Of a stretch of 64,000 nt of DNA, positions 2,181 through 18,035 are shown in pieces. Each line of letters starts with the position of its first letter. Positions within the stretch are counted from its first letter, which is position 1. A program made the translations under genes and the position numbers. This DNA is from Spirochaetota bacterium (GTDB lineage: Bacteria > Spirochaetota > JAHITG01 > JAFGFC01): contig JAFGFC010000071.1 in NCBI GenBank assembly GCA_016931325.1, positions 11,379 through 75,378 on the forward strand, written 5' to 3'. The notes under the pieces are model-generated. The model was not told where the DNA came from. It did not search any database and saw only the letters and a list, made by a program, of their open reading frames with translations.

Positions 2181-5100
2181 CTATTTATGTTTCCGGCGGC
2201 TTCTGGTCTTTCGCTTAATGCGTGTCGGTCTCCTGATCCCCCTCTTCCCGAACACAAAAACACAGTTACGGCCTGATTCCTTGGCCTTGTATAGACTCTC
2301 ATCCGCTCGCTCGACAAACTCCAATCTGTTCTCCCCTTCCCCTAATTGCGCCACACCAATACTCAATGTCACATTTAACTCTTCAACCCTTTTCCCCACC
2401 CGGTAGCTCATCTTCAACCCTTCGGCCTCTTTACATAACTTGCCTGCCAGGTTTTCCGCTCCCTCCAGGTCTGTTTCCGGCATAATTACCACAAATTCAT
2501 CCCCTCCATACCGGGCCGCTATATCGCTTTTCCTTACATTCTCCTGGATCAGATCCGTCACCTCGATCAATACCAGATCTCCTGCCTGATGCCCGTAATC
2601 ATCATTGAACCTTTTAAAATGATCAATGTCGATGATCATGAGGCTCAATGCCTTGCCATACCTTAAGGCCTCATCAACGCTTTTTATCAGATAATTGTCA
2701 AAGAAAATCCGGTTGTAAAGTCCAGTCAGCCCGTCCGTGATCGCCCGCTGGTAAAGCCTTGCGTTCTCTATCGAGACTCCGGCCTGACCTGAGATAAGAT
2801 CAAGAACCATCAAATCCTCCTGGCTGAATAGCCCGGTCACCAGACGATTATCCAGATAGATCACACCCAGCATATTTCCACGCGCCATGATCGGCGCACA
2901 GAGAACGCTTTTTAGCCCGTACTTGACCACTGACGACTGCCCTTTCAGTACCGTGTCTGTACCCGCATCTTCCACAATAACCGGCTTTGTCTCTTTTTCC
3001 ACCTTCTCTATTATGCTCTGGCTGGAGATAAATGCTTCTCCCTTCAGCTGCCCCTTCTCCACATTCCTGACCACCCTGATTTCAAGCTCTTTCTTCTTCC
3101 CCCTCTCATCAGGATATAACAACAGTATGCCCCGCTCCGCTCCCACCAGTTCCATGGTCTTGTCCATGATCTTTTCCAACAGCTCGTCCAGGTTGAGTAT
3201 GGATGACAGATATCGGCTCGTGCCCAATACCGTGGTCATCCTCCGCTCCACCTTGAGCCGGTCCTGCGGGCTGACCTCCTCGGTTGCCTCTTTCTCTTCT
3301 TTGAGTCCCAGGGCCTGAGAGCATTCTTTGATATATTTTTTAGCTCCTATGGTTTTGAAAACAGTTAATGCTGTTTCCCGGTTTTTCATGGCTTCTTCTT
3401 TTTTCCCCATTATATCTAAAAAATTGCTGTATTCGTAATAACTTTTAGCCATTTCATATTGACGATATGTATTTTTTAAATGTTTTATACTTTTTTTAAA
3501 ACAATTTTCCGCTTTTGTCTTCTTCTTAATTAAAGCGTAGTATTTACCACATACTCTCCATGTAACACCGTAATGGGCTGGCCAGGCTTTTGTATGCTTG
3601 TGAGATTCTTTACAAATTTTTTTTATCTGTTTCATGTCTCTTTTTAACAAGATCTTATTTTTTGTCCTGGTATCTTCATTATAATATCTCATGATATAGG
3701 AATCAGCCAAATAAGGATACAGGTATACAATATAATCTTTAATAAAATTATTATTAAGATACAGCTCTTTAGCTCTTTCCAATAATTTTATTGCTTCCTG
3801 ATATTTACCCTCTTCATATTTTAAATATCCGTGTACAACGCTGGAAGAACAATATATAAACCAAACTTTGTTTTTTTTACTGACACTCAAAGCCTCTCTT
3901 CCTACTTTGTTCGCTATATCAAAATTTCCCATTTCTATATTAGCTAAAGATATATTGGCCAGTGCTGAACTTTCACCATATACATCTTTTAATCTTCTAC
4001 TGATTTCCAGGTATTGGGTTAAATAATTAACCCCTTTGGCATAATCAGACATTAATCTGTATAAAAGACCAAAACCCTGTATTATCATCCCTAATTCCCA
4101 CATATCCCCCATTCTTTCAAATTTTTCCTGTGCCAGAGTGAAAACCTCAATAGCTTTTGGATATTCTGCCTTCCAGCTATAGCCATATCCCATAAACTGG
4201 AGTGATTGAGCTAATCCCCATTCATCATTCAGTTCTTTCCTTAAAGCTATAGCTTTTTTATGATATTTTATGGATAATTTAAAAATAGGTATAGCCATTA
4301 ATAACGCAGCATATCCTCCAAAAGATATGCCTAATTCCTTTGATTTTCCTATCCTCGATTCTGATATATTTAACATCCTTAATACATTGCAGATAAATTT
4401 ACTAATATCACTTAAAATATACATCCAATTTAACGGGATATTGATCCAGACTATTTCTTTATCTTCTTCTTTGATATTTTTAATTCCCTTGCGTACAAAA
4501 ATAAATGGGAAAAGATTATGCAAAAGATGTGTAATAATTTCTTTTGTCAAAGAAATTATGATTTCTATTTTCTTTCGCGGAATTTTTTCTCCAATTAATA
4601 ATAATCCATTCGCTAAATTGTCCTCACATTTTTCCCAGTCCCCTTTTTTAAAATAAGCCGTTCCTATTTTCCGGTAAATACGGGCTTTTTCAACAGGTTT
4701 TTTCTTTAAATGCAAAAGTTCCCGACATAGATCTATCGCTTCATCATTCCTGCCAATCGTTAGATATACCGCTGATAAACCCTCTTTGGCTTGAATCCAC
4801 TCTTCTTTACCTTTCTTCCCTTTCTTTTCTAACAAGTCTATCCCTATCTGATAATATCTGATCGCATCTTCATTGGCATAGTTTACTTTCGCCTTTTCAG
4901 CTGCCGGGATGACATATTCCAAAGACTTTCGTTTATCTCCTCCTTCTGTATAATGATGTGCCAGCTCAAAGACCACACTCTCAATGTTTTTCTTATTTAA
5001 TTCTTCGATTGCTTTTGCTATTTTTAAATGAAGAGCCTGTCTTCTCTTCTTGCCGATCTTCTGATAAAAAGCATCCCGGATCTTGTCATGCACAAAGATC

Positions 5101-7103
5101 TTCTTCCCCCGTTCCAGACTTTCCTGGATCAGCTGCATGGATATGGCGTCATCCACTATCCTGACAACATCCTCCTTTGGCATCTCTACCAGAGGATACA
5201 GCAGATCGATCTCAAATTCCCTGCCGATAACAGATGACAGATAAAGTATTTCACTCTGCTTCTGGGTGAGATCCTCGATCCGTTTTAAAATAATATCGAT
5301 CATATTGGCTGATACCGGAATCCTGGCTATCCGTTTCCAGTCCGCATCCCAGTACCCTTCCTTCCATATCAGGCCTTTCTCTTCTACCAGTTCTCTCAAA
5401 ATACTTATGGCAAAAAAGGGATTTCCCCTACTTTTTCTCATCACATACCGGGTCAACTCATGGGCTTTGCTCTCCCGTTCACCCAAAAGTGAAGCCACCA
5501 TCCTGTTCATCCTGTCATAAGTAAATGATTTGATAATAATCTCTTCTAAAGCATAACCTCCTGTTTCAGCCTCATTTTTTACCCTGGTTAAACTGTGCTT
5601 TTCATCCACCTCATTATCACGAAAAGCTCCTATGATCAACAGGTTTGAATTTTTTACCTTCCCGGCGATCTCCTCAAGGAGCCTCAAGGTCCCTTCATCC
5701 GCCCATTGCAGATCATCGATATAGATCAGGCAGGCTGTAGTTTCCCCAACCAGATGACAGAAAAAATTGGATGCCACCATTAAAAATCTCTGGTTCTCAC
5801 GTTCCGGATCAAGTTTGACCAGCTGAGGTACTTCGCCCAATACTTCAGACATGTTCCCATTAAGCCGTATCACGATCTCTCCCAGATCCCCCAGAATATT
5901 TTTTATCCTCTTTATCTCTGTTTCTTTTTCTTTCTTCCCTAACCTTTCAAGATGTTTAATATACCCGTTAATCGTGTCCCGGAAAGGCTGATAGGGTGTC
6001 TTGTTCTCCTGGTCCAGACAACGGCCGCCAATGAAAAGCCCGTTCTCTTCATAACAGTAACTCCTCATCTCCTCCAAAAGACGGCTCTTGCCCACTCCCG
6101 GTTCTCCTCCTATCAAACAGACACTCCCCTGACCATCCCTGGCTTTATTAAAAAGCTTTTGCATCCTGGATACTTCTGCTTCCCTGCCCACAAGCCTGGT
6201 CTGATAACTGATCTTTACCTTCTGGTCCTTCTCCCCTATGATAAAACCCCTTTCCCCTTTCTGGAATCTTTGTACATCATATAAAAGCCCCTTGGCGCTC
6301 TGATACCGAAGCTCCGGTTCCTTGAACAACAGTTTCATCACCATCTCTTCCAGTTCACTCGATATCCCGGTCCGCACCTTGCCCGGCTTGGTCGGCATTA
6401 CAGCCACCTGCTGATGAAGCATCTTGCTGGTCTCTTTGGCCCTGAAAGGCAGTTCCCCGGTCAGCAATTGATAAAAGATAATACCCAGTGAATACAGATC
6501 ACTCCGTTCATCTATTCTTTTATTCACGATCCCCGTGGCTTCAGGCGACATGTATCCGAAGGTCCCGACCACTTCTTCCTCCCCTTTCAAATGACCCAGT
6601 TCCATGATAAAGGCCACGCCAAAATCTAAAAGTTTTGTCACATTTCCTTTGCCCTTTTTCACCAGCATAATATTGCCCGGTTTCAGGTCCCTGTGAAGTA
6701 TCCCCCGGCCATGTACATAATCCAGTGCCTCTGTCAGTTGTTTGATAATATCGATCGTTTCTTTTGTTCCAAAACTTTTCTGCTGCTCCAATTTCTCGGA
6801 CAGGCTCTGTCCGGGAATAGATTCCATGACAATGTAAGGAATATTTTTATATTCTCCGCTGGAATAGATCTTTACGATATTGGTATGGCTTAACTGGCTG
6901 ACCGCTTCGATCTCTCTTTTGAACCGGATCACATCTTCAATATAGGATGAGGTCACTCCCTGTTTGAGGAATTTTATGGCCACATCATGCTTTTTTTTTC
7001 TGTCCCTGGCCCGAAAAACAACACTCATTCCCCCTTCGCCGATCTGTTCAAGTATCTGGTATCTCGTATCAATTGTTGCGTTCTTTTTAAATTTCAGTTC
7101 CAT
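2181..7103 (-). CDS. Multidomain signalling protein: N-terminal Ser/Thr protein kinase, AAA/STAND-like NTPase, multiple TPR repeats, GAF domain, C-terminal GGDEF diguanylate cyclase, then a Lys/Arg-rich tail
   Basis: Kinase motifs GEGGMSVVFRA...AIK and HRDLKPGNIML...DFG. Walker A GGEPGVGKSRLLEE. A long TPR-like helical region. GAF-like ELLEKIMDKTMELVGAERGILLL. GGDEF motif RYGGDEFVVIM with an RKSD (RxxD) I-site 5 residues upstream. The tail reads RRPTRIKRKTRSRRKHK. Confidence 0.8.
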   Translation of the reverse strand: MELKFKKNATIDTRYQILEQIGEGGMSVVFRARDRKKKHDVAIKFLKQGVTSSYIEDVIRFKREIEAVSQLSHTNIVKIYSSGEYKNIPYIVMESIPGQSLSEKLEQQKSFGTKETIDIIKQLTEALDYVHGRGILHRDLKPGNIMLVKKGKGNVTKLLDFGVAFIMELGHLKGEEEVVGTFGYMSPEATGIVNKRIDERSDLYSLGIIFYQLLTGELPFRAKETSKMLHQQVAVMPTKPGKVRTGISSELEEMVMKLLFKEPELRYQSAKGLLYDVQRFQKGERGFIIGEKDQKVKISYQTRLVGREAEVSRMQKLFNKARDGQGSVCLIGGEPGVGKSRLLEEMRSYCYEENGLFIGGRCLDQENKTPYQPFRDTINGYIKHLERLGKKEKETEIKRIKNILGDLGEIVIRLNGNMSEVLGEVPQLVKLDPERENQRFLMVASNFFCHLVGETTACLIYIDDLQWADEGTLRLLEEIAGKVKNSNLLIIGAFRDNEVDEKHSLTRVKNEAETGGYALEEIIIKSFTYDRMNRMVASLLGERESKAHELTRYVMRKSRGNPFFAISILRELVEEKGLIWKEGYWDADWKRIARIPVSANMIDIILKRIEDLTQKQSEILYLSSVIGREFEIDLLYPLVEMPKEDVVRIVDDAISMQLIQESLERGKKIFVHDKIRDAFYQKIGKKRRQALHLKIAKAIEELNKKNIESVVFELAHHYTEGGDKRKSLEYVIPAAEKAKVNYANEDAIRYYQIGIDLLEKKGKKGKEEWIQAKEGLSAVYLTIGRNDEAIDLCRELLHLKKKPVEKARIYRKIGTAYFKKGDWEKCEDNLANGLLLIGEKIPRKKIEIIISLTKEIITHLLHNLFPFIFVRKGIKNIKEEDKEIVWINIPLNWMYILSDISKFICNVLRMLNISESRIGKSKELGISFGGYAALLMAIPIFKLSIKYHKKAIALRKELNDEWGLAQSLQFMGYGYSWKAEYPKAIEVFTLAQEKFERMGDMWELGMIIQGFGLLYRLMSDYAKGVNYLTQYLEISRRLKDVYGESSALANISLANIEMGNFDIANKVGREALSVSKKNKVWFIYCSSSVVHGYLKYEEGKYQEAIKLLERAKELYLNNNFIKDYIVYLYPYLADSYIMRYYNEDTRTKNKILLKRDMKQIKKICKESHKHTKAWPAHYGVTWRVCGKYYALIKKKTKAENCFKKSIKHLKNTYRQYEMAKSYYEYSNFLDIMGKKEEAMKNRETALTVFKTIGAKKYIKECSQALGLKEEKEATEEVSPQDRLKVERRMTTVLGTSRYLSSILNLDELLEKIMDKTMELVGAERGILLLYPDERGKKKELEIRVVRNVEKGQLKGEAFISSQSIIEKVEKETKPVIVEDAGTDTVLKGQSSVVKYGLKSVLCAPIMARGNMLGVIYLDNRLVTGLFSQEDLMVLDLISGQAGVSIENARLYQRAITDGLTGLYNRIFFDNYLIKSVDEALRYGKALSLMIIDIDHFKRFNDDYGHQAGDLVLIEVTDLIQENVRKSDIAARYGGDEFVVIMPETDLEGAENLAGKLCKEAEGLKMSYRVGKRVEELNVTLSIGVAQLGEGENRLEFVERADESLYKAKESGRNCVFVFGKRGIRRPTRIKRKTRSRRKHK

Positions 7104-8835: not shown

Positions 8836-9843
8836 ATGGAAACAAAACGATGCAGCCTGTTTTTTCTTTACTTCCTGTGTTTACCGTGGATACTTTTTTC
8901 AGATACAAATTCTTCATCAACCAATATAAAAGAAAAATACACTAAAGAGACCATCCAATTCTGGGATAGAACTCTGCGTTTCGGCACCACACAGCAGAAA
9001 AAGGCTGTCCTTGAAACCATCAGAGATCAAAAGATCGAAGCCGCCCTGGATATAGTAAAGGACCATCTGGAAACAGAAAGGAACCTCACTGTGAAAAAGA
9101 TCATGATCGAGGCTCTGGTAACTTTAAAAGACAGATCATCCATCCCTTATCTGATCACGCTCTTAAAAGATAATTCCTTAACGAGGGATATCCATATTTT
9201 TGCCATGAATGCTCTGGGCCTTTTAAAATCTGAAAAATCCGGTGATGTTATTCTTAAATTTTTAGATTCGCCTGATATCCAACTGAAAGAGACCGCGTTG
9301 AGGGCTCTGGGTGGGATTCAATACAAACCGGCTACACCTGTTGTTATTAAAAAGCTAAAAGAAGAAGAGAATGAAAGGGTGAGAACAGAAATGATATTGA
9401 CCCTGGTCAATATCGAATCAGAAAAATCTCAGGACACCCTCATTTCCATTCTGACGAATGAGAACGAAAAATCACTTAACCGTCAATTTGCTGCTACCGG
9501 ATTAAGTCGCATAAAAAATGAAAGATCCTTTGCTATTTTATCACAATATATCGAGCGTACTGACACAGCGATAAAGGCCAGAATAACAGAGGCGTTAGGG
9601 ACCCTGGGGAATAAAAAAGCCGCCATGATCTTACAGGAATGCTTGAAAGATGATGATGATGTTATCCGGTATTATGCAGCTCTATCACTAGGAAAATTAA
9701 AGATAAAGGATGCCCTGGAGATATTAAAGTATAAAAAGGATTATGATCCTGAACTCAAGGTCAGAAAGGCATCTGAAAAAGCCATAAAACAAATTTCAGG
9801 GGAGTCAGATGAACATAAAGGACTCGGAAATACAAAAAACTAA
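8836..9843 (+). CDS. Secreted HEAT/PBS-lyase-type repeat protein
   Basis: N-terminal hydrophobic signal sequence. Repeated ~30-aa units of the form ...ALGxLGxxxAxxxLxxxLxDxDxxVRxxA... (e.g. DVIRYYAALSLGKLKIKDALEIL). Confidence 0.6.
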   Translation: METKRCSLFFLYFLCLPWILFSDTNSSSTNIKEKYTKETIQFWDRTLRFGTTQQKKAVLETIRDQKIEAALDIVKDHLETERNLTVKKIMIEALVTLKDRSSIPYLITLLKDNSLTRDIHIFAMNALGLLKSEKSGDVILKFLDSPDIQLKETALRALGGIQYKPATPVVIKKLKEEENERVRTEMILTLVNIESEKSQDTLISILTNENEKSLNRQFAATGLSRIKNERSFAILSQYIERTDTAIKARITEALGTLGNKKAAMILQECLKDDDDVIRYYAALSLGKLKIKDALEILKYKKDYDPELKVRKASEKAIKQISGESDEHKGLGNTKN

Positions 9844-10786
9844 AAAGATCCTGAAAGATTTTCATTCCACACTTGAAGAAGTTTCTTATTATTGCTCAAA
9901 GACCAACAAGATCTACAAAGCCTTTGGACTGTCCGTGATCAATTCCACGGCCATGGACAGGATCAAAGGGATGTGCGATGAGATACAGGGCAGGCTGAAG
10001 AAGGATTTCATCTTAAAAATCAAGATCGATAAAAATTACTATCATGATCTGAGAAATTTTATATTTACGGATATATCATTATTTATTAAACAATTTAATA
10101 ATTTTTTTAATAATATACTGATCCGTTTTAAAAAAAATTATTTTAGTAAAGAAGAATGGAAGACCGGTAATCCTCTCACACTTCTGGGCGCTACTTTTAC
10201 TTTTTTAAATATGCAATTTAAAAGTCTAAGCAATATTGTTAATCGTTTCTTTAATGTGGGTCTGAAGGAACATTACGAGCTCGAGGTCATTGATGATACA
10301 GATAAAATATGGGATACTAAAGATATGAAATTTGCCGAGTTCCCGAGCGATATCAATAAAATAAAAGTCTACGCCAGGAATATTATGGATACCTGTAGTT
10401 CAGACGAAATAAAAGAGAATGTGATACTGCAACTTCAGATCAGCGAATTTATCAAAAATGCCATCCGTCATGGCAATAAACTTGATCCTAATAAAAAGGT
10501 CAAAGTATGGCATAATATTAACAATGATTTTGTCAAATTGATCGTGCAGGATGAAGGTGAAGGATTTAAACAATTAGAAGAATGGAACGAATTTAATAAA
10601 CTGCGAAATAAATTTATACAGGAACAGGATTTAACAAATGTTCTCCTCTTTGCCGCCTATAAAACAACCGATAGCCAGGACAATGATGGCGGTAATTTTT
10701 TATTTTCAGCTTTGGAATATTGGGATAGCGGAGTTATTTTTAATCAAAAAAGAAACAAGATCGTCGTCATAAAATATTTCTATTGA
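9809..10786 (+). CDS. GHKL-type ATPase, RsbW/SpoIIAB-like anti-sigma-factor kinase family, with a ~130-aa N-terminal extension; paralog of 11109..11714
   Basis: N-box ISEFIKNAIRHGN; G1 box QDEGEGF; DGGNFLFSALEYWDSGVIFNQKRNKIVVIKYF. About 190 aa align with the convergent gene at 11109..11714. Confidence 0.5.
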   Translation: MNIKDSEIQKTKKILKDFHSTLEEVSYYCSKTNKIYKAFGLSVINSTAMDRIKGMCDEIQGRLKKDFILKIKIDKNYYHDLRNFIFTDISLFIKQFNNFFNNILIRFKKNYFSKEEWKTGNPLTLLGATFTFLNMQFKSLSNIVNRFFNVGLKEHYELEVIDDTDKIWDTKDMKFAEFPSDINKIKVYARNIMDTCSSDEIKENVILQLQISEFIKNAIRHGNKLDPNKKVKVWHNINNDFVKLIVQDEGEGFKQLEEWNEFNKLRNKFIQEQDLTNVLLFAAYKTTDSQDNDGGNFLFSALEYWDSGVIFNQKRNKIVVIKYFY

Positions 10787-10790
10787 ACGA

Positions 10791-11108
10791 TCAGACTTTT
10801 TTATAAAATTTAAAATATTGTCCGATCTTTGTAGCGGTAAACACTTCCAGAACATCTGAAGAAATAGACAGGATACCCAGTTCCCCGCCTTTTCCCTTTA
10901 AATCTTTCATGACATCCATCAGACATCCCAGACCGGAACTGTCAATATAATCGATCTTTTGAAAATCCACAATTATTTTTTTAAACCCCTGTTCGATACC
11001 GTTCTTTAATAATTTTTTTAATTCACCCACATTATTGATATCAATAGAAGTATTTTCTTCCTCGATCCTGACAATAAAAAGATGATCATTAATTTCTGCT
11101 TTAAACAT
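10791..11108 (-). CDS. STAS-domain anti-sigma-factor antagonist (SpoIIAA/RsbV-like)
   Basis: 105 aa. The DYIDSSGLGCL motif carries the conserved phosphorylatable Ser context of STAS antagonists. Confidence 0.7.
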   Translation of the reverse strand: MFKAEINDHLFIVRIEEENTSIDINNVGELKKLLKNGIEQGFKKIIVDFQKIDYIDSSGLGCLMDVMKDLKGKGGELGILSISSDVLEVFTATKIGQYFKFYKKV

Positions 11109-11714
11109 TTAATACTCCCCTTTTAATTCTTTATCAGTATAATATCTCAAGGCCACCACTTTGTTCTTTTTCTTATTATATATCATACCGCTATTCCAGA
11201 ATTCAATGGCAGCAAAAAGGGCATTACCGCCATCCAGCTCGCTGCTTTCCGAGGTTCTATAGGAAATAAATTTTAGCATTTCATCAAAATTATTTTCTAA
11301 AAAATATTTCGTCCTTTTTTCATTAAACTCATTCCACTGTTCCAGGGTTGTAAATCCTTCCCCTTGATCCTCAACAATGATGCGGGCGAACCTTTCCTTC
11401 GGTTTAAATTCCCACCAGGCCCTCACAACCTTACTTTCATCTTTCCTGTTCCCGTGTATAACAGCGTTCTTTATTAACTCTGATATCTGTTGTTCCAATA
11501 GATTCCCCATTTTAAATTCATTGGGAGCCTCAAAGGCAATAATCGTTGCATAGTTTCTGATCTGTCTATATCGACTGGGAAATTCCCGAAATCTCATTCC
11601 TTCCGTAGTAAAATAAGGGCTATATTCATTCACTTCTAATCTTCTGATCTTGGCCATAATGAATCCTGCAAAATACTCGTTAGACAGTTTAATCAATTCC
11701 CACTGGAATGTCAA
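11109..11714 (-). CDS. RsbW/SpoIIAB-like GHKL serine-protein kinase (anti-sigma regulatory factor)
   Basis: ISELIKNAVIHGN, EDQGEGF, DGGNALFAAIEFWNSGMIYNKKKNKVVALRYY. Sits immediately upstream of, and is co-directional with, the STAS gene. Confidence 0.6.
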   Translation of the reverse strand: MTFQWELIKLSNEYFAGFIMAKIRRLEVNEYSPYFTTEGMRFREFPSRYRQIRNYATIIAFEAPNEFKMGNLLEQQISELIKNAVIHGNRKDESKVVRAWWEFKPKERFARIIVEDQGEGFTTLEQWNEFNEKRTKYFLENNFDEMLKFISYRTSESSELDGGNALFAAIEFWNSGMIYNKKKNKVVALRYYTDKELKGEY

Positions 11715-13500: not shown

Positions 13501-14223
13501 TTGAATAAAATGGCAAATAAAAAAGAATATATCATTATCATCCCTATCTATAATGAGGAACAGCATATCCTTACTGTCTGCCAGAAGATGAAAAAGATCA
13601 TCGATAAAAAAGTTATGGATATTCTGGTCATTAATGACGGTTCAACAGATAAAACACTTACCATCTTGAAAGGCATAAAAAATATCAATATATTATCTCA
13701 TAAGGTCAATCTGGGGTATGGGCAGTCTCTGATTAATGGTTTTCATTACGCTATAAAACGGAATTATAGATATATTATTACCATGGATTGTGACTGGCAG
13801 CATGACCCGGATCAGATCATGCATTTTGCTCAAGCGATCAGAGGTCATTGGGACATCATATCAGGAAGCCGTTATTTAACATTGTCTCCGGCTAAAAAAA
13901 AAGATGTTCCTCAAGATCGTTTTACAATTAATAAAAAAATAACTCGAAAGATAAATAAAATAACAGGCTTTCATCTTACAGATTCTTTTTGTGGATTCAA
14001 AGCCTACAAGGTCAATATATTGAAAAAGCTGGAACTGACAGAACCCGGCTATGGCATGCCTATCCAGTTATGGCTTGAAGCCGGCAAACACAATCTGAAA
14101 GTGAGAGAGATCCCTGTGGATCTGATCTATCTCGATTATTCCCGTAACTTTCATAATCGATTCACTCATGCCAAAGAACGATATAAATATTATCTTAGGA
14201 TACTCAAAGGAGGTAAGGAATAA
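13501..14223 (+). CDS. Family 2 glycosyltransferase, dolichyl/polyprenyl-phosphate sugar transferase (DPM1)-like
   Basis: IIIPIYNEEQHI...VINDGSTDKT shows the GT-A DxD-type signature. Confidence 0.75.
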   Translation: MNKMANKKEYIIIIPIYNEEQHILTVCQKMKKIIDKKVMDILVINDGSTDKTLTILKGIKNINILSHKVNLGYGQSLINGFHYAIKRNYRYIITMDCDWQHDPDQIMHFAQAIRGHWDIISGSRYLTLSPAKKKDVPQDRFTINKKITRKINKITGFHLTDSFCGFKAYKVNILKKLELTEPGYGMPIQLWLEAGKHNLKVREIPVDLIYLDYSRNFHNRFTHAKERYKYYLRILKGGKE

Positions 14224-14900
14224 TGAATATCATGATAATGGCCCCCCACCCTGATGATGCCGAATTGGCTATTGGCGGGACGATCGTCTCTCTTACTAAA
14301 AATAATAATATTTTTCTACTGGATATGACAAATGGTGAACCCACACCCCATGGCAGTATTGAAACAAGACTCAATGAAGCCAAAAAAGCAGCCAACATCC
14401 TGAATATAAAAAAAAGGATCACCCTTGATCTTCCGAATCGATATCTTCAGGACACGATAGAATACAGACAAGCCATCGCTGAAAAAATAAGAGAGTACAA
14501 ACCTGAAATATTGTTGATCCCTTATAAAATAGACGCTCATCCTGATCATATCGCTTCACATTATCTGGGATTGGCTTCGCGTTTTTATTCAAAATTTACT
14601 AAATCCAAAATGAAAGGAGAACCCTTTTACCCCTCGAAACTTTTTTTTTATTTTCCGAGCCACATGAGGATCAATATACATCCTACGTTTATTTATCCCG
14701 TCACGGAAAAAGAATTCCAGAAGAAGAGGCAGGCTATCAGAGCTTATCGGTCTCAATTCTTTTATGGGAAGAACAAACAGATCCCTGAGTTTATCGATAT
14801 TATCGGAAAATATTGGGGAAAGCTGATCTCATCTGATTACGGAGAGCCTTTTTATACGCCGGAGGTGATCGGCATAAAGGATATGGGTTGTATTGTATAA
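14223..14900 (+). CDS. PIG-L/LmbE-family N-acetylglucosaminyl deacetylase (BshB/MshB-like)
   Basis: MAPHPDDAELAIGGTI (HPDD motif) and HPDHIASH. The start overlaps the upstream stop (TAATG). A strong AGGAGGT RBS is present. Confidence 0.8.
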   Translation: MNIMIMAPHPDDAELAIGGTIVSLTKNNNIFLLDMTNGEPTPHGSIETRLNEAKKAANILNIKKRITLDLPNRYLQDTIEYRQAIAEKIREYKPEILLIPYKIDAHPDHIASHYLGLASRFYSKFTKSKMKGEPFYPSKLFFYFPSHMRINIHPTFIYPVTEKEFQKKRQAIRAYRSQFFYGKNKQIPEFIDIIGKYWGKLISSDYGEPFYTPEVIGIKDMGCIV

Positions 14901-16354
14901 AAATGGAAAGGGAACCGATTAAAAAAACCATTATTCAAAATCATCAGACCCGGAAAGAATTCTTCACACATCAAAAGACATGGGAAAAGATAAGAAAGCA
15001 ATTTTTCAAGGATTTGAAACTCGACCGGTTCGGCGCCGATGTTATAATCATCGCGACAGGTCATCAACCGCTTTTTTATTATCCCGGTATTATCTTTAAA
15101 AATTACTATACGCATAAAATTGCCGGTATGGCAAAAGGCATCCCGGTCAATTTTATCGTGGATACAGATGAAGCCATTGTTCAAATCGTTATACCCGGTA
15201 AAAATGAAAATATATTTTTCAAAAAATTAATGGAGCTGAAAAATCCCGATAAAAAAGCCTATTTTCATTTTAAACCTTCTCAAGAAGAGGTAAAACATTT
15301 TTTTATCCGTATTGAAAAAGAGATAAAAGGCCTTGATGATACCCGGACCAACAAGGCCTTCAGGGATTATTTTAAATCTTTCTTGGAACTTTTTAGTAAC
15401 AATCATGATTTTGTTGAGACAATCTCCTTTTTAAGAAGGCAATGGGAAAAATCCCTTCAATTTCCAGTTCTGGATATCAGAATATCCCGTCTATCCGATT
15501 CTATCGCCTTTGCCCAATTTATCTGGGAACTTGTAAAGGATATTGATCGCTTTACAGAAATATATAATGATGCAGTCCAAAAAGTGAAGAAAAACGAATA
15601 TCAGGCGGTAAAGTATCTGACCCGGGAGAATAATACCTTTGAACTCCCGTTCTGGTATATAGGAAAATCGCGTGAAGAGGTATTTTTAAAAAAGGAAATT
15701 GATCAGCTTTTAATCTTTACCCCCCTGGAAAACCTATTGACTCTATCCATGAAAGAGAACGATAATGTATCAATCCAGAAATTAAAAAGAATAAAACTTG
15801 TCCCTAAAGCTGTCACCCTTACCCTGATCTTACGCCTCTTCTTTGCTGATCTTTTTATTCACGGAACAGGAGGGCAGTTTTATGACAGGGTCACAGATGA
15901 GATCCTGATGAGATTCTATCATCTGAACACCTTGCCCTTTGCGATGGCCACAGGAAACATATATCTGCCTCTTTTTGAGGCCATGATGACACGAGAGAAA
16001 GAATATCGGGAAAAAAAAGATTTTTTAAAAGAATTGAAATATCATCCTGAAAAATATCTGACTGAAGATAAATCCAAAAAATATATATCCGAAAGAAAAG
16101 CATTAGCCAGACTTTTATCCTGTCAAAGCGATCCTGTACAAAGGAAATCAATACATGACAAACTGACCCGGCTTGGGGAACAGGCTACGCAAAGCCTCAA
16201 GGACAGGATCACTGACACAAAAAAGGAGATATCCCGGGCGGAAAATATTATAAAATTCAAAGATGTGTTCGCTGAGAGAAAGTACCCTTATTTCCTTTTT
16301 CCGGGATCATTTCCTTTTATTCAATATCTTGACAGAGGAAAATTGATTGTGTAA
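14888..16354 (+). CDS. BshC-like (DUF2317) putative cysteine-adding enzyme
   Basis: IIIATGHQPLFYYPG...THKIAGMAKGIPVNFIVDTDEA aligns with the B. subtilis BshC segment VVVAGQQAGLLTGPLYTIHK...GVPVIPVFWVAGEDHD as recalled from memory. Confidence 0.4.
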   Translation: MYCIKMEREPIKKTIIQNHQTRKEFFTHQKTWEKIRKQFFKDLKLDRFGADVIIIATGHQPLFYYPGIIFKNYYTHKIAGMAKGIPVNFIVDTDEAIVQIVIPGKNENIFFKKLMELKNPDKKAYFHFKPSQEEVKHFFIRIEKEIKGLDDTRTNKAFRDYFKSFLELFSNNHDFVETISFLRRQWEKSLQFPVLDIRISRLSDSIAFAQFIWELVKDIDRFTEIYNDAVQKVKKNEYQAVKYLTRENNTFELPFWYIGKSREEVFLKKEIDQLLIFTPLENLLTLSMKENDNVSIQKLKRIKLVPKAVTLTLILRLFFADLFIHGTGGQFYDRVTDEILMRFYHLNTLPFAMATGNIYLPLFEAMMTREKEYREKKDFLKELKYHPEKYLTEDKSKKYISERKALARLLSCQSDPVQRKSIHDKLTRLGEQATQSLKDRITDTKKEISRAENIIKFKDVFAERKYPYFLFPGSFPFIQYLDRGKLIV

Positions 16355-16385
16355 ATTGTAATATGACAAGGACAACAGGTTAAAA

Positions 16386-18035
16386 ATGAAAAACAAAGAA
16401 TTTTTAAGATCAAAAAGAAAGCATATCGCCCTTATTACCAATCATGGTTATGCCGGACCGAAACTACCACTGGGAGGAGCTCCCGATACAGGAGGCCAGA
16501 ATTTCTATGTCAATTCTCTGGCTGAAAGCATGGAGGAATTAGGTTATAAAGTTACAATATATGCCCGGGGGGGATTTCATTTTTTTAACTCCCAAAGGAT
16601 GAGAAAAGGCGAAGAATTCCTTTCTGACCATATACGCTATGTCTATATCCCCGGCGGAGGGAAAGAATTCATTCCCAAGGAAAAGATAGGATCGGTTTTG
16701 GATGAACAGACAGATTATCTTTACGATCATTTAAATAAAGAATCCGCCCTGTTGAAATGCAAACCCTATGACATGTTTTTATTCATCAACTCACATTATT
16801 GGGACGGGGCTATGCTTGCCGTCAAACTGATCGAAAGATGGCAGAATGACCTTTTATTTGATATTTTAGAAAAAAACAAATTTCATCCAAAGATCTTTTC
16901 ATATTATTACAGGAACAGGCACAGACTGTCCATAGCTCACGCCCCTGAAGCCTTTGCGGGAAGAATGCTTTTACAACTTTATCCTGATGATATAATCGAT
17001 TATAATGATCTAAAGATCGACAGCATCTATAACCTGAAATCATTTATTAAACAGAGTCAGAAAATCCCCCCTCATCTGAAAAATACATTTCTGGTGAACA
17101 AGATCGGATTATGGTATCTTCGCTCCAGTAATTATAAAAAAATATTACAATCAATCAATCGACATATTTGGACACCCCATTCAGTGGGTGAAATCAAGAT
17201 GAAAAACTACTGGGAAAAAGATCATGAATCAAAAAGAGAATTAAAATTCCTTGAAAGGATCGACCATGAATATTATATTGGCCATAAAACACCTTTTGTA
17301 GCCGCCACATCAGAAGAGATCGTCAAAAGCCTGGCCGACTTTTATGGCTATCCTCTCGAAAAGATCATGTTCTTCCCGCCCTGTATCGATGAAAAAAAGT
17401 TCAAGAAACGTACTAAAGAAGAATGTGAATTTATCTATCCTTATCTGGCCAGAGTGACAAGAATGAGACAAGTGAAGCTGTTGACGAAAAGGATTGTATT
17501 TGAAACCAGCCGCATGGATGAAACAAAAAGAAAGGATATCCTGATAAAGGCTTTCAGAAAGGTCATTAAAAAGGTCCCGGAAGCTATTTTGATCATCGGC
17601 GGGGGCCCAAAAAACCATGTTTTTCAAAAACTGGAAAGACTTATCAGAAGGTGGAATCTGACCAGATCAGTCTTTTTAACAGGATTTATCCCTCAAAAAG
17701 AAATGGAAGAGCTTTTCAGTATAGCTGACATTTTTGCAACAGCCTCTGAAATGGAAGGTTTTGGTATGACGGCTTTACAGGCAGCCGCCTGTTCAACTCC
17801 TATCATCAGTTCTAATCTGGTCCCCTTTTGTGTCTACTATTTAAAAGAAGATTGCCTTATTGTTAAAGAAGGGGATGCGGCTGGTTTTGCCCGGGAGATA
17901 ATCAGACTTTTAACTGATCCCTTCCTGTCAAAACAACTGGCAGAAAATTCTTACAGATCAGTCAACCAGTTTAACTGGAAAGAGAAAACCAAAGATATGA
18001 TCCTCTTTATGCAAAAACATCTTTCATCCGGTTAA
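16386..18035 (+). CDS. Family 4 glycosyltransferase, sucrose-phosphate-synthase-like (possible BshA/MshA analog)
   Basis: N-terminal [25 protein letters not shown] (the DTGGQ motif of SPS-like GT4). C-terminal [22 protein letters not shown] (GT-B EX7E region). Confidence 0.75.

What the first reader, a model, noticed from the sequence alone, without database searches (positions are those of the whole stretch)
13501..18035. Four-gene GT2 / PIG-L deacetylase / BshC-like / SPS-like GT4 operon: candidate low-molecular-weight thiol or glycoconjugate pathway
The operon is tightly coupled (TAATG overlap, 13-nt overlap, 31-nt gap). It encodes a DPM1-like GT2, an LmbE/PIG-L deacetylase with the HPDD motif, a protein whose N-terminal region aligns with the BshC segment containing GQQ and IHK, and a GT4 with the DTGGQ motif of sucrose-phosphate-synthase-like enzymes. 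GT4 plus PIG-L deacetylase plus a Cys-adding enzyme is the logic of bacillithiol (BshA/B/C) and mycothiol (MshA/B/C) synthesis. Here the GT4 is SPS-like rather than BshA-like, and there is an additional polyprenyl-phosphate-type GT2. The product could therefore be a variant thiol or a lipid-linked glycoconjugate.
Basis: partly seen in the sequence, partly recalled or inferred. Interest (0 to 1): 0.65.

Follow-up and report, generated by a model that had tools for sequence, protein, structure and literature searches.

The report
BshC-like ligase operon, unknown product
This Spirochaete operon holds a widely conserved but unannotated gene trio (a sugar transferase, a bacillithiol-type deacetylase and a protein predicted to fold like the bacillithiol cysteine-adding enzyme BshC), which may make a protective small thiol in bacterial groups where none is known.

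Summary
The family calls hold for three of them: a DPMS/ArnC/PpgS-type GT2, a PIG-L/LmbE deacetylase closest to BshB1, and a GT4 of the MshA/BshA/SPS group.

The 488-aa protein (X) hits no BshC model. Pfam, NCBIfam and HMMER with all filters off give at most 5 bits. A confident AlphaFold model (pLDDT 95) nevertheless matches B. subtilis BshC (4WBD) over its full length as by far the best PDB hit (Foldseek E 4.6e-14).

X defines a large family annotated only as "hypothetical", with 4,170 clusters at 50% identity. It occurs in at least 579 species genomes of Planctomycetota, Spirochaetes, Armatimonadota, Coriobacteriia-type Actinomycetota, Nitrospirae and Nitrospinota.

In 72 of 81 loci that could be assessed, the GT2 sits directly upstream of X. 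In 54 a PIG-L also does, and three of these tested from other phyla pass NCBI's BshB1 cutoff. The GT4 is a lineage-specific addition.

Best reading: HexNAc transfer, then N-deacetylation, then ATP-dependent ligation of an amino acid (probably Cys), following bacillithiol/mycothiol logic. The GT2 type also fits a lipid-linked amino-sugar pathway. The product is unknown.

The parts
13510..14223 (+). GT2 glycosyltransferase, 237 aa from ATG 13510 (the longest ORF starts at TTG 13501). It is of the DPMS/ArnC/GtrB/PpgS type and has no transmembrane segment.
   Evidence: Sequence families: PF00535 at 2.8e-23. Best NCBIfam hit is PpgS at 87 bits, far below its cutoff of 370.

Solved structures by sequence: PfDPMS 6e-11 and ArnC 8e-11.

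Motifs: DCDWQH matches the DPMS DADLQH motif. R124 and R140 align with the acceptor-phosphate ligands Arg117 and Arg131, N144 aligns with Ser135, and G185 with Lys178.

Structure: AF2 pLDDT 92. Foldseek gives ArnC 3.4e-14, DPMS TMq 0.78 and GtrB, with GpgS close behind at 6.5e-11.

Other: maximum KD19 hydropathy is 0.74. It lies directly upstream of X in 72 of 81 loci.
14223..14900 (+). PIG-L/LmbE zinc N-deacetylase of BshB1 type, 225 aa.
   Evidence: Sequence families: PF02585 at 8e-23. NCBIfam BshB1 TIGR04001 scores 152.8 bits over the full length, below the cutoff of 182.5. The next best model, BshB2, scores 24 bits.

Solved structures by sequence: Thermus TT1542 7e-33, B. subtilis BshB1 5e-24 and B. 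cereus 2IXD 3e-23.

Motifs: AHPDD and HPDH metal motifs are present.

Counterparts next to X in three other phyla score 188-208 bits, above the cutoff.
14903..16354 (+). Protein X, 483 aa from ATG 14903 (488 aa from TTG 14888). It is a member of an unannotated family with a predicted BshC-like fold: a class-I aminoacyl-tRNA-synthetase-like Rossmann core plus a C-terminal helical domain. It is the proposed ATP-dependent ligase.
   Evidence: Sequence models: no Pfam or NCBIfam hit.

Structure: AF2 pLDDT 95, pTM 0.89. Foldseek against the PDB gives 4WBD BshC at E 4.6e-14, probability 1.00, TM 0.59/0.54 over 544 columns. The next hit is class I LysRS at 1e-5.

Profile comparison: hhalign is collinear but not significant. 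It aligns TGHQP with GGQQA, VDxD with EDHD, and FIHGxGGxxYD with FIAGPGExxYW.

Family size: 4,170 clusters at 50% identity with E<=1e-3, and at least 579 species genomes.

Invariant residues: H59, G67, N227, P254, W256, A308, R316, F323, H325, G326, Y332 and R464.
16386..18035 (+). GT4 glycosyltransferase, 549 aa, of the MshA/BshA/sucrose-phosphate-synthase group. It is a lineage-specific fourth gene of the operon.
   Evidence: Sequence families: PF00534 at 7.9e-31. NCBIfam gives MshA 92, BshA 81 and SPS 79 bits, all far below their cutoffs.

Solved structures by sequence: SPS Tll1590 1e-18, BshA 6e-14, MshA 8e-14, and SPS 2R60 for the N-terminal domain.

Context: an orthologue (2e-230) follows X only in L007. 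A different GT4 precedes PIG-L-X in L005, overlapping PIG-L by 4 nt.

Best explanation
The functional unit is a conserved three-gene module, to which this Spirochaete lineage has added a GT4.

Step 1 (inferred from family). The GT2 transfers an N-acetylhexosamine from a UDP-sugar to an anionic, probably phosphate-bearing acceptor.

Step 2 (family shown, substrate inferred). The BshB1-type zinc deacetylase removes the N-acetyl group and exposes the 2-amine.

Step 3 (BshC-like fold predicted; chemistry inferred). X uses ATP to activate an amino acid, most likely L-cysteine, and ligates it to that amine. X has a BshC-like, class-I-aminoacyl-tRNA-synthetase-like fold.

The product would be an N-aminoacyl-glucosamine conjugate of the bacillithiol/mycothiol type. 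That makes it a candidate low-molecular-weight thiol for lineages that have none assigned.

The MshA/SPS-like GT4 either supplies an alternative first glycosylation, as a GT4 may do in the Leptospirales locus L005, or adds a second sugar.
For: 1. X matches BshC far better than any other solved structure. Three motif blocks line up in the same order in both families.

2. The adjacent deacetylase is BshB1-like. Counterparts from Leptospirales, Armatimonadota and Coriobacteriia pass NCBI's BshB1 equivalog cutoff at 188, 208 and 206 bits against 182.5.

3. Gene order is conserved across phyla. Of 81 assessable loci, 50 are GT2-PIG-L-X, 22 are GT2-X and 4 are PIG-L-X. Overlapping stop and start codons are common.

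4. Context points to thiol and redox biology:
- An OsmC-like gene lies directly upstream of the GT2 in 32 Actinomycetota-type loci, often with a 4-nt overlap. It scores 109.5 bits against the OsmC cutoff of 138. OsmC proteins are Cys-based peroxidases (general knowledge).
- A GNAT acetyltransferase follows X in 5 Planctomycetota loci, as MshD follows MshC in mycothiol logic.

5. The window context is housekeeping genes (rimI, dnaJ, grpE, argG, aaRS genes), not a polysaccharide locus.

6. Distribution looks complementary to known thiol pathways:
- Planctomycetes and Spirochaetes are stated to have no documented or predicted low-molecular-weight thiol (PMC6282198).
- A 2025 BshA/B/C survey does not name the X-rich phyla in the passages read (bioRxiv 10.1101/2025.07.06.663066).
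Against: - X fails all BshC sequence models, and hhalign probability is only 1-7%. Homology rests on a predicted fold.
- Even the BshC reaction has never been reconstituted in vitro (PMC5790435), so 'cysteine ligase' is itself an inference.
- The GT2 belongs to the polyprenyl-phosphate glycosyltransferase clade. It keeps that clade's DxDxQH motif and two of the three acceptor-phosphate ligands of PfDPMS. The products of that clade are activated lipid-linked donors, not stable cofactors.
- GT2s about 50% identical occur without X, and a GT2-PIG-L pair without X occurs in Atribacteria.
- Planctomycetota loci lack PIG-L within 6 kb.
- No thiol-specific partner such as a bacilliredoxin or a disulfide reductase was seen near the locus.
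- The OsmC and GNAT links each come from a single lineage.
Confidence: 0.5

Rival explanations
1. Lipid-linked amino-sugar pathway. The GT2 makes polyprenyl-phosphate-HexNAc at the inner face of the membrane. The PIG-L enzyme deacetylates it, as ArnD, NaxD and LgmC do after ArnC, FlmF2 and LgmA, or as PIG-L does on GlcNAc-PI. X then N-acylates or aminoacylates the lipid-linked HexN. The product is flipped and transferred to an envelope polymer by a transferase encoded elsewhere.
For: - The best sequence and structure relatives of the GT2 are all polyprenyl-phosphate glycosyltransferases. By NCBIfam these are PpgS, AglJ, PgfS, ArnC and dolichyl-P hexose transferase. By PDB they are DPMS, ArnC and GtrB.
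- The DxDxQH motif and the equivalents of Arg117 and Arg131 are invariant in the family.
- A PfDPMS variant lacking its transmembrane domain is still membrane-targeted and active (PMC5526996), so the absence of TM helices here is not an objection.
- GT2 and GT2-PIG-L occur without X, as expected for a general lipid-sugar donor with optional tailoring.
Against: - No flippase, GT-C transferase or polysaccharide gene is conserved next to the module in any lineage.
- The module occurs in both diderm and monoderm lineages (taxa; envelope types from general knowledge).
- The deacetylase is closest to the BshB1 enzymes that act on soluble substrates, not to lipid-acting deacetylases.
- GpgS, which uses a soluble acceptor, is nearly as good a structural match for the GT2 at TMq 0.71-0.76.
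- The OsmC and GNAT neighbours fit a cytoplasmic thiol better.
Confidence: 0.28
2. Genuine bacillithiol synthesis. X is simply a very divergent BshC orthologue, the PIG-L is BshB1, and the product is bacillithiol itself, with GlcNAc-malate made by the GT2, the GT4 or a BshA encoded elsewhere.
For: - PIG-L neighbours of X pass the BshB1 equivalog cutoff.
- X has the BshC fold.
- The window GT4 and the L005 GT4 both show weak BshA and MshA similarity.
Against: - No BshA-level GT4 is present. The BshA model scores 81 and 66 bits against a cutoff of 274.
- The constant partner is an inverting GT2 (the GT2 family is described as inverting in PMC5526996). It would give a beta or phospho linkage, whereas bacillithiol is the alpha-glycoside (PMC5790435).
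- X shares no detectable sequence signal with BshC. It has invariant His where BshC has Gln and Ala.
- BSH gene surveys do not report these phyla.
Confidence: 0.1
3. X is not a ligase in a common pathway with its neighbours. It could be, for example, a regulatory or scaffolding partner of the GT2, or a nucleotide-binding protein of unrelated function, with the resemblance to thiol pathways being coincidental.
For: - No catalytic activity is known even for BshC.
- X occurs alone in anammox-type loci.
- The GT2 occurs alone elsewhere.
Against: - Adjacency with the GT2 and PIG-L, with overlapping reading frames, recurs in many phyla.
- Invariant polar residues (H59, N227, R316, H325, Y332, R464) cluster in motifs that map onto the Rossmann-core motifs of BshC. 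This is typical of an active site.
Confidence: 0.07

Closest known systems
Bacillithiol biosynthesis (BshA GT4, BshB1/B2 LmbE deacetylase, BshC; B. subtilis, PDB 4WBD for BshC)
   Same: - The three-step logic is the same: GlcNAc transfer, N-deacetylation, then addition to the amine.
- The deacetylase is BshB1-like, and above the BshB1 cutoff in relatives.
- X has the BshC fold with a C-terminal helical domain.
- Three motifs are collinear between the families.
   Different: - X is undetectable with BshC HMMs.
- X has TGHQP and FIHG where BshC has GGQQ and FIAG.
- The constant glycosyltransferase is a DPMS-type GT2, not a retaining GT4 like BshA.
- The host phyla are different.
- The aglycone is unknown.
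Mycothiol biosynthesis (MshA GT4, MshB LmbE deacetylase, MshC CysRS-like ligase, MshD GNAT)
   Same: - The same logic applies, including a class-I-aaRS-like ligase.
- The window GT4's best NCBIfam hit is MshA at 92 bits.
- A GNAT follows X in 5 Planctomycetota loci, recalling MshD.
   Different: - X is not a CysRS paralogue.
- All MshA, MshB and MshD model scores are far below their cutoffs.
- In the passage read, mycothiol genes are reported only in Actinobacteria (PMC6282198).
Polyprenyl-phosphate amino-sugar pathways (ArnC/ArnD; Francisella FlmF2/NaxD; Bordetella LgmA/LgmC; mycobacterial PpgS). The pathway details are recalled from general knowledge, not tested here.
   Same: - The GT2 is closest to ArnC, DPMS, GtrB and PpgS.
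- A glycosyltransferase followed by a deacylase acting on an N-acyl amino sugar is the same pairing.
   Different: - The deacylases in those systems belong to other families (ArnD and NaxD/YdjC types), not to LmbE.
- Those systems sit with flippases and GT-C transferases, which are absent here.
- None of them contains a BshC-like protein.
Other systems that transfer a GlcNAc, deacetylate it and then N-acylate it: Nod factor NodC/NodB/NodA, the teicoplanin GlcNAc deacetylase plus acyltransferase, and GPI PIG-A/PIG-L. These are recalled from general knowledge.
   Same: The chemical logic recurs. PIG-L/LmbE enzymes can act on lipid-linked or aglycone-linked GlcNAc.
   Different: The enzyme families for the first and third steps are different, and no homology to X is involved.

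Membership tests
BshC (Pfam PF10079 + PF24850; NCBIfam BshC equivalog) | A significant match to the family's sequence models | tested here: not met
   - No hit for X at E<=0.1.
- None of 43 family members hits PF10079 or PF24850 at E<=10.
- With HMMER --max, the X profile against 120 BshC sequences, and the reverse search, give at most 5 bits.
- True BshC proteins carry both Pfam domains.
BshC (Pfam PF10079 + PF24850; NCBIfam BshC equivalog) | BshC fold: a Rossmann-like, class-I-aaRS-like core plus a C-terminal coiled-coil domain | tested here: met
   The AF2 model (pLDDT 95) matches 4WBD at E 4.6e-14, probability 1.00, TM 0.59/0.54 over 544 columns. The next hit is class I LysRS at 1e-5. This compares a predicted structure with a solved one.
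BshC (Pfam PF10079 + PF24850; NCBIfam BshC equivalog) | Conserved core motifs (GGQQ..GP.Y..HK; EDHD; FIAGPGE..YW) | tested here: inconclusive
   Equivalent blocks exist in the same order (TGHQP..PG...K; VDxD; FIHGxGGxxYD). Key residues differ, and hhalign probability is only 1.4-6.9%.
BshC (Pfam PF10079 + PF24850; NCBIfam BshC equivalog) | Genomic association with bshA and bshB | tested here: inconclusive
   A BshB1-type gene lies directly upstream in 54 of 81 loci. No BshA-level GT4 was found next to X. Whole genomes could not be searched.
BshC (Pfam PF10079 + PF24850; NCBIfam BshC equivalog) | Required for bacillithiol synthesis, with GlcN-malate accumulating in the mutant | not testable with these tools
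   This needs genetics and thiol analysis.
BshB1 (NCBIfam TIGR04001 equivalog) | Score above the curated cutoff of 182.5 bits | tested here: not met
   The window protein scores 152.8 bits over its full length. Its counterparts next to X in L005, L003 and L010 score 188, 208 and 205.6 bits and do pass.
PIG-L/LmbE zinc deacetylases (PF02585) | Pfam match and the metal-binding AHPDD...HxDH motifs | tested here: met
   PF02585 scores 81.8 bits against a cutoff of 28.2. APHPDDAE and DAHPDH are present in the sequence. The zinc ligands of BshB are given as His12, Asp15 and His113 in PMC5790435.
Polyprenyl-phosphate GT2 (DPMS/GtrB/ArnC/PpgS type) | GT-A fold with the DxDxQH motif and acceptor-phosphate ligands (PfDPMS Arg117, Arg131, Ser135) | tested here: met
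   - DCDWQH aligns with DADLQH.
- R124 aligns with Arg117 and R140 with Arg131.
- Ser135 is replaced by an invariant Asn, and Lys178 by Gly.
- Foldseek gives ArnC 3.4e-14 and DPMS TMq 0.78.
Polyprenyl-phosphate GT2 (DPMS/GtrB/ArnC/PpgS type) | Membrane anchoring (TM helices or a membrane partner) and use of a polyprenyl-phosphate acceptor | tested here: inconclusive
   - There is no TM segment (maximum KD19 hydropathy 0.74).
- The helices at the IFH1 and IFH2 positions are polar, with net charge +5 each.
- No small membrane partner is encoded nearby.
- All NCBIfam equivalog scores are far below their cutoffs.
- Acceptor use cannot be tested in silico.
BshA / MshA / sucrose-phosphate synthase GT4 equivalogs | Score above the curated cutoffs (273.7 / 462.5 / 576 bits) | tested here: not met
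   The window GT4 scores 81.2, 92.1 and 78.6 bits respectively. Only superfamily-level membership (PF00534) is met.

The most novel reading that the evidence does not exclude
X is the amino-acid-adding (cysteine-adding) enzyme of a previously unrecognised low-molecular-weight thiol, or a related N-aminoacyl-glucosamine cofactor. This compound would be built on a GT2-made, beta- or phospho-linked aglycone rather than on malate or inositol. It would be widespread in Planctomycetota (including anammox bacteria), Spirochaetes, Armatimonadota, Coriobacteriia-type Actinomycetota, Nitrospirae and Nitrospinota, lineages for which no redox-buffer thiol has been assigned.
Probability: 0.35. Interest if true: 0.9.

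Novelty: new variant of a known kind. Interest (0 to 1): 0.72.

Why it matters
Which small thiol buffers the cytoplasm of Planctomycetes, Spirochaetes and several other major phyla is an openly stated gap (PMC6282198). This locus supplies a concrete and testable candidate: a three-gene module that includes a large, unmodelled protein family whose only structural relative is BshC.

Because X is so divergent, comparing it with BshC could also help with a second open problem. The BshC reaction has never been reconstituted (PMC5790435).

If instead the lipid-linked reading is right, the module would define a new tailoring step for polyprenyl-phosphate amino sugars, namely aminoacylation. Either way, thousands of "hypothetical proteins" would gain a function.

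Tried and rejected
- **Direct BshC membership.** Pfam and NCBIfam on X, Pfam on 43 family members at E<=10, phmmer and a profile against the PDB, and unfiltered HMMER in both directions were all negative.
- **hhalign against a single BshC sequence** gave nothing. Against BshC alignments it gave collinear but non-significant alignments. The BshC alignment contained only Bacillaceae (at least 45% identity), because the search lists only the best 120 hits. More diverse BshC sequences could not be fetched.
- **The search for related loci with the 43-sequence alignment failed** because it had no stretch conserved enough. A 28-sequence subset worked.
- **Literature searches** for 'BshC-like', BshC with Planctomycetes, bacillithiol with Leptospira, anammox and related terms, and novel thiols found no description of this family.
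- **Hydropathy and amphipathicity of the GT2 helices** did not separate a membrane-interface enzyme from a soluble one. ArnC's equivalent helix is also polar.
- **A scan of about half the window's other genes** found housekeeping functions and no thiol-specific partners.
- **The idea that the GT4 is the BshA equivalent of the family** was rejected, because the SPS-like GT4 is found next to X only in the closest relative.

Full report
**Observation.** The window carries four same-strand ORFs at 13501-14223, 14223-14900, 14888-16354 and 16386-18035.
- The 13-nt overlap between genes 2 and 3 holds only for the TTG start at 14888. The NCBI gene model (483 aa) and the homologues begin at the ATG at 14903, 2 nt after the stop of gene 2.
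- No terminator-like site on the + strand lies inside the cluster.
- The contig belongs to a MAG labelled 'Spirochaetes bacterium'. GC content is about 38% and unremarkable relative to the flanks.

**Family calls for genes 1, 2 and 4.**
- Gene 1 is a GT2 (PF00535, 2.8e-23). Its best curated relatives are all polyprenyl-phosphate glycosyltransferases: PpgS, AglJ, PgfS, dolichyl-P hexose transferase and ArnC. All score far below the equivalog cutoffs.
- Gene 2 is a PIG-L/LmbE deacetylase (8e-23). It aligns over the full length of NCBI's BshB1 model at 152.8 bits, against a cutoff of 182.5, and the next model scores only 24 bits. Its closest solved relatives are Thermus TT1542, B. subtilis BshB1 and B. 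cereus BC1534.
- Gene 4 is a GT4 with comparable sub-threshold hits to MshA, BshA and sucrose-phosphate synthase. The N-terminal DTGGQ motif is real.

**Gene 3 (X).** X has no hit in Pfam or NCBIfam, and none in the PDB by sequence or by profile.
- None of 43 family members touches the BshC models, even at E<=10.
- Unfiltered HMMER between an X profile and 120 true BshC sequences gives at most 5 bits in either direction.
- However, an AlphaFold2 model built on a 43-sequence alignment is very confident (pLDDT 95, pTM 0.89).
- Its best PDB match by a wide margin is B. subtilis BshC, 4WBD: Foldseek E 4.6e-14, probability 1.00, TM 0.59/0.54 over 544 columns at 11% identity. Class I lysyl-tRNA synthetase follows at 1e-5, then other class I synthetases.
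- I checked that my recalled BshC sequence is exactly the 4WBD chain, then collected BshC homologues and aligned them.
- Profile-profile comparison is not significant (probability 1.4-6.9%) but is collinear over up to 440 columns. It places TGHQP opposite GGQQA, VDxD opposite EDHD, and FIHGxGGxxYD opposite FIAGPGExxYW.
The 'IHK' match was to a non-conserved THK. The family's conserved lysine, K71, is the residue that aligns with BshC K105.
- X is best described as a separate family of the BshC fold, not as a BshC.

**Size and spread of the X family.**
- A profile search of 1.84 billion representatives found 4,170 clusters at 50% identity with E<=1e-3, and 2,752 with E<=1e-30.
The 80 listed are from Planctomycetota (including Brocadia and Scalindua), Spirochaetes, Armatimonadota, Coriobacteriia-type Actinomycetota, Nitrospirae and Nitrospinota, and nearly all are MAGs. 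A separate contig look-up added a Limnochordales MAG.
- Nearly every name given by a source is 'hypothetical protein'. The single exception is a JGI label, 'uncharacterized protein YhfF'.

**Gene neighbourhood.** I called ORFs in 84 distinct loci and searched them with profiles built from the window proteins. Of these, 81 held enough upstream sequence to assess.

| Arrangement | Loci |
|---|---|
| GT2-PIG-L-X | 50 |
| GT2-X (all Planctomycetota-type) | 22 |
| PIG-L-X (Leptospiraceae-type) | 4 |
| X without either partner (mostly anammox and other Planctomycetota) | 5 |

- Reading frames often overlap by 4 nt.
- The PIG-L genes next to X in Leptospirales, Armatimonadota and Coriobacteriia loci score 188, 208 and 206 bits on the BshB1 model, above the curated cutoff.
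- The SPS-like GT4 follows X only in L007. That is the closest relative, with X 44% identical, and it also shares the flanking rimI, dnaJ, grpE and argG genes.
- A different GT4 precedes PIG-L-X in L005, overlapping PIG-L by 4 nt.

**Other neighbours.**
- An OsmC-family gene lies directly upstream of the GT2 in 32 Actinomycetota-type loci, often overlapping it by 4 nt. It scores 109.5 bits against a cutoff of 138. OsmC proteins are Cys-based peroxidases (general knowledge).
- In five Planctomycetota loci, a roughly 450-aa GNAT (Acetyltransf_9) follows X within 34-129 nt. This recalls MshD in mycothiol synthesis.
- Each of these links comes from a single lineage, so each counts as roughly one observation.
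- No flippase, GT-C transferase or polysaccharide gene is conserved near the module.
- The window itself is housekeeping: PheRS, a GlxRS, QPRTase, rimI, dnaJ/grpE and argG.

**What the GT2 says.**
- Aligned to P. furiosus DPMS, it keeps the signature DxDxQH motif (DCDWQH).
- It also keeps equivalents of two of the three residues that bind the acceptor phosphate, R124 for Arg117 and R140 for Arg131. An invariant Asn replaces Ser135 and Gly replaces Lys178.
- Its AF2 model (pLDDT 92) matches ArnC (3.4e-14), DPMS (TMq 0.78) and GtrB best. The soluble-acceptor enzyme GpgS is close behind at 6.5e-11, TMq 0.71-0.76.
- It has no transmembrane segment, and the two helices at the interface-helix positions are polar and strongly basic. 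ArnC's equivalent helix is also polar.
- A DPMS variant lacking its transmembrane domain still works at the membrane (PMC5526996). Solubility therefore remains undecided.
- GT2s about 50% identical occur alone (L088, L089) or with only PIG-L (Atribacteria, L087).
- This is the main evidence for the rival reading. In that reading the module makes a polyprenyl-phosphate-HexN that X then N-acylates, by analogy with ArnC/ArnD and related systems.

**Interpretation.** Both readings share one chemical logic: HexNAc transfer, N-deacetylation, then ligation to the freed amine by a BshC-fold enzyme.

I favour a soluble bacillithiol/mycothiol-type product with cysteine as the added residue (confidence about 0.5 for the pathway logic with X as ligase, and about 0.35 for a thiol specifically). 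The reasons are:
- the BshB1-level similarity of the deacetylase;
- the BshC fold of X;
- the OsmC and GNAT neighbours;
- the housekeeping context;
- the distribution. Hiras et al. state that Planctomycetes and Spirochaetes have no documented or predicted low-molecular-weight thiol (PMC6282198). A 2025 survey lists bacillithiol-pathway phyla that do not include the X-rich ones.

The steps that are shown are gene order and its conservation, and the family of each protein. The BshC-like fold of X rests on a confident prediction compared with the solved BshC structure. The steps that are inferred are the sugar, the acceptor, ATP use and the amino acid.

The BshC reaction itself has never been reconstituted (PMC5790435). 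That weakens the analogy, but it also makes a divergent relative useful.

**Verdict.** The cluster is a new variant of the known glycosyltransferase, LmbE-deacetylase, ligase scheme. It is built around a large unannotated BshC-fold family and a DPMS-type GT2. The product is unknown, and the decisive tests are listed separately.

Noticed in passing
window 9809-11714: A partner-switching-like set lies just upstream of the operon region. It comprises two proteins with anti-sigma-type HATPase_c_2 kinase domains (9809-10786 on +, 11109-11714 on -) and a 105-aa STAS-like ORF (10791-11108 on -).
   Followed up: no
window 2181-7103 (-): A single 1,640-aa ORF that was not examined.
   Followed up: no
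window 18007-18035: The 3' end of the GT4 gene overlaps the convergent dnaJ gene by 29 nt. No terminator-like site was found between them.
   Followed up: partly
L009-L086, Actinomycetota-type loci (e.g. L012:5843-6307): An OsmC-family gene lies directly upstream of GT2-PIG-L-X in 32 loci, often with a 4-nt overlap. OsmC proteins are Cys-based peroxidases.
   Followed up: partly
L030, L034, L045, L071, L076 (e.g. L076:9497-10876): In Planctomycetota, a roughly 450-aa GNAT (Acetyltransf_9) follows X within 34-129 nt, and a rhomboid-family gene follows that in some loci. This recalls MshD in mycothiol synthesis.
   Followed up: partly
L019:4992-5966, also L029 and L065: In Leptospiraceae-type loci, a TIGR02757-family protein of unknown function (149 bits, above its cutoff of 139) sits directly upstream of PIG-L-X, after a large ORF that resembles (by eye, not tested) the Pfam-annotated SpoIIE gene of L005.
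   Followed up: no
L087:6001-7424 (Atribacteria): A GT2 49% identical to the window's is paired with a PIG-L gene, with no X gene beside it. GT2s about 50% identical stand alone in L088 (next to a mannose-6-phosphate isomerase gene) and in L089.
   Followed up: partly
L033, L035 (anammox Planctomycetota): X occurs directly after mutS, with neither the GT2 nor PIG-L within 6 kb.
   Followed up: no
window 14888-16354, protein residues 59 and 325: The X family has two invariant histidines, in TGHQP and in FIHG. hhalign places these opposite BshC's GGQQA and FIAG, where BshC has Gln and Ala. They could be ATP or metal ligands, and they may mean that X uses more canonical adenylation chemistry than BshC.
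   Followed up: no
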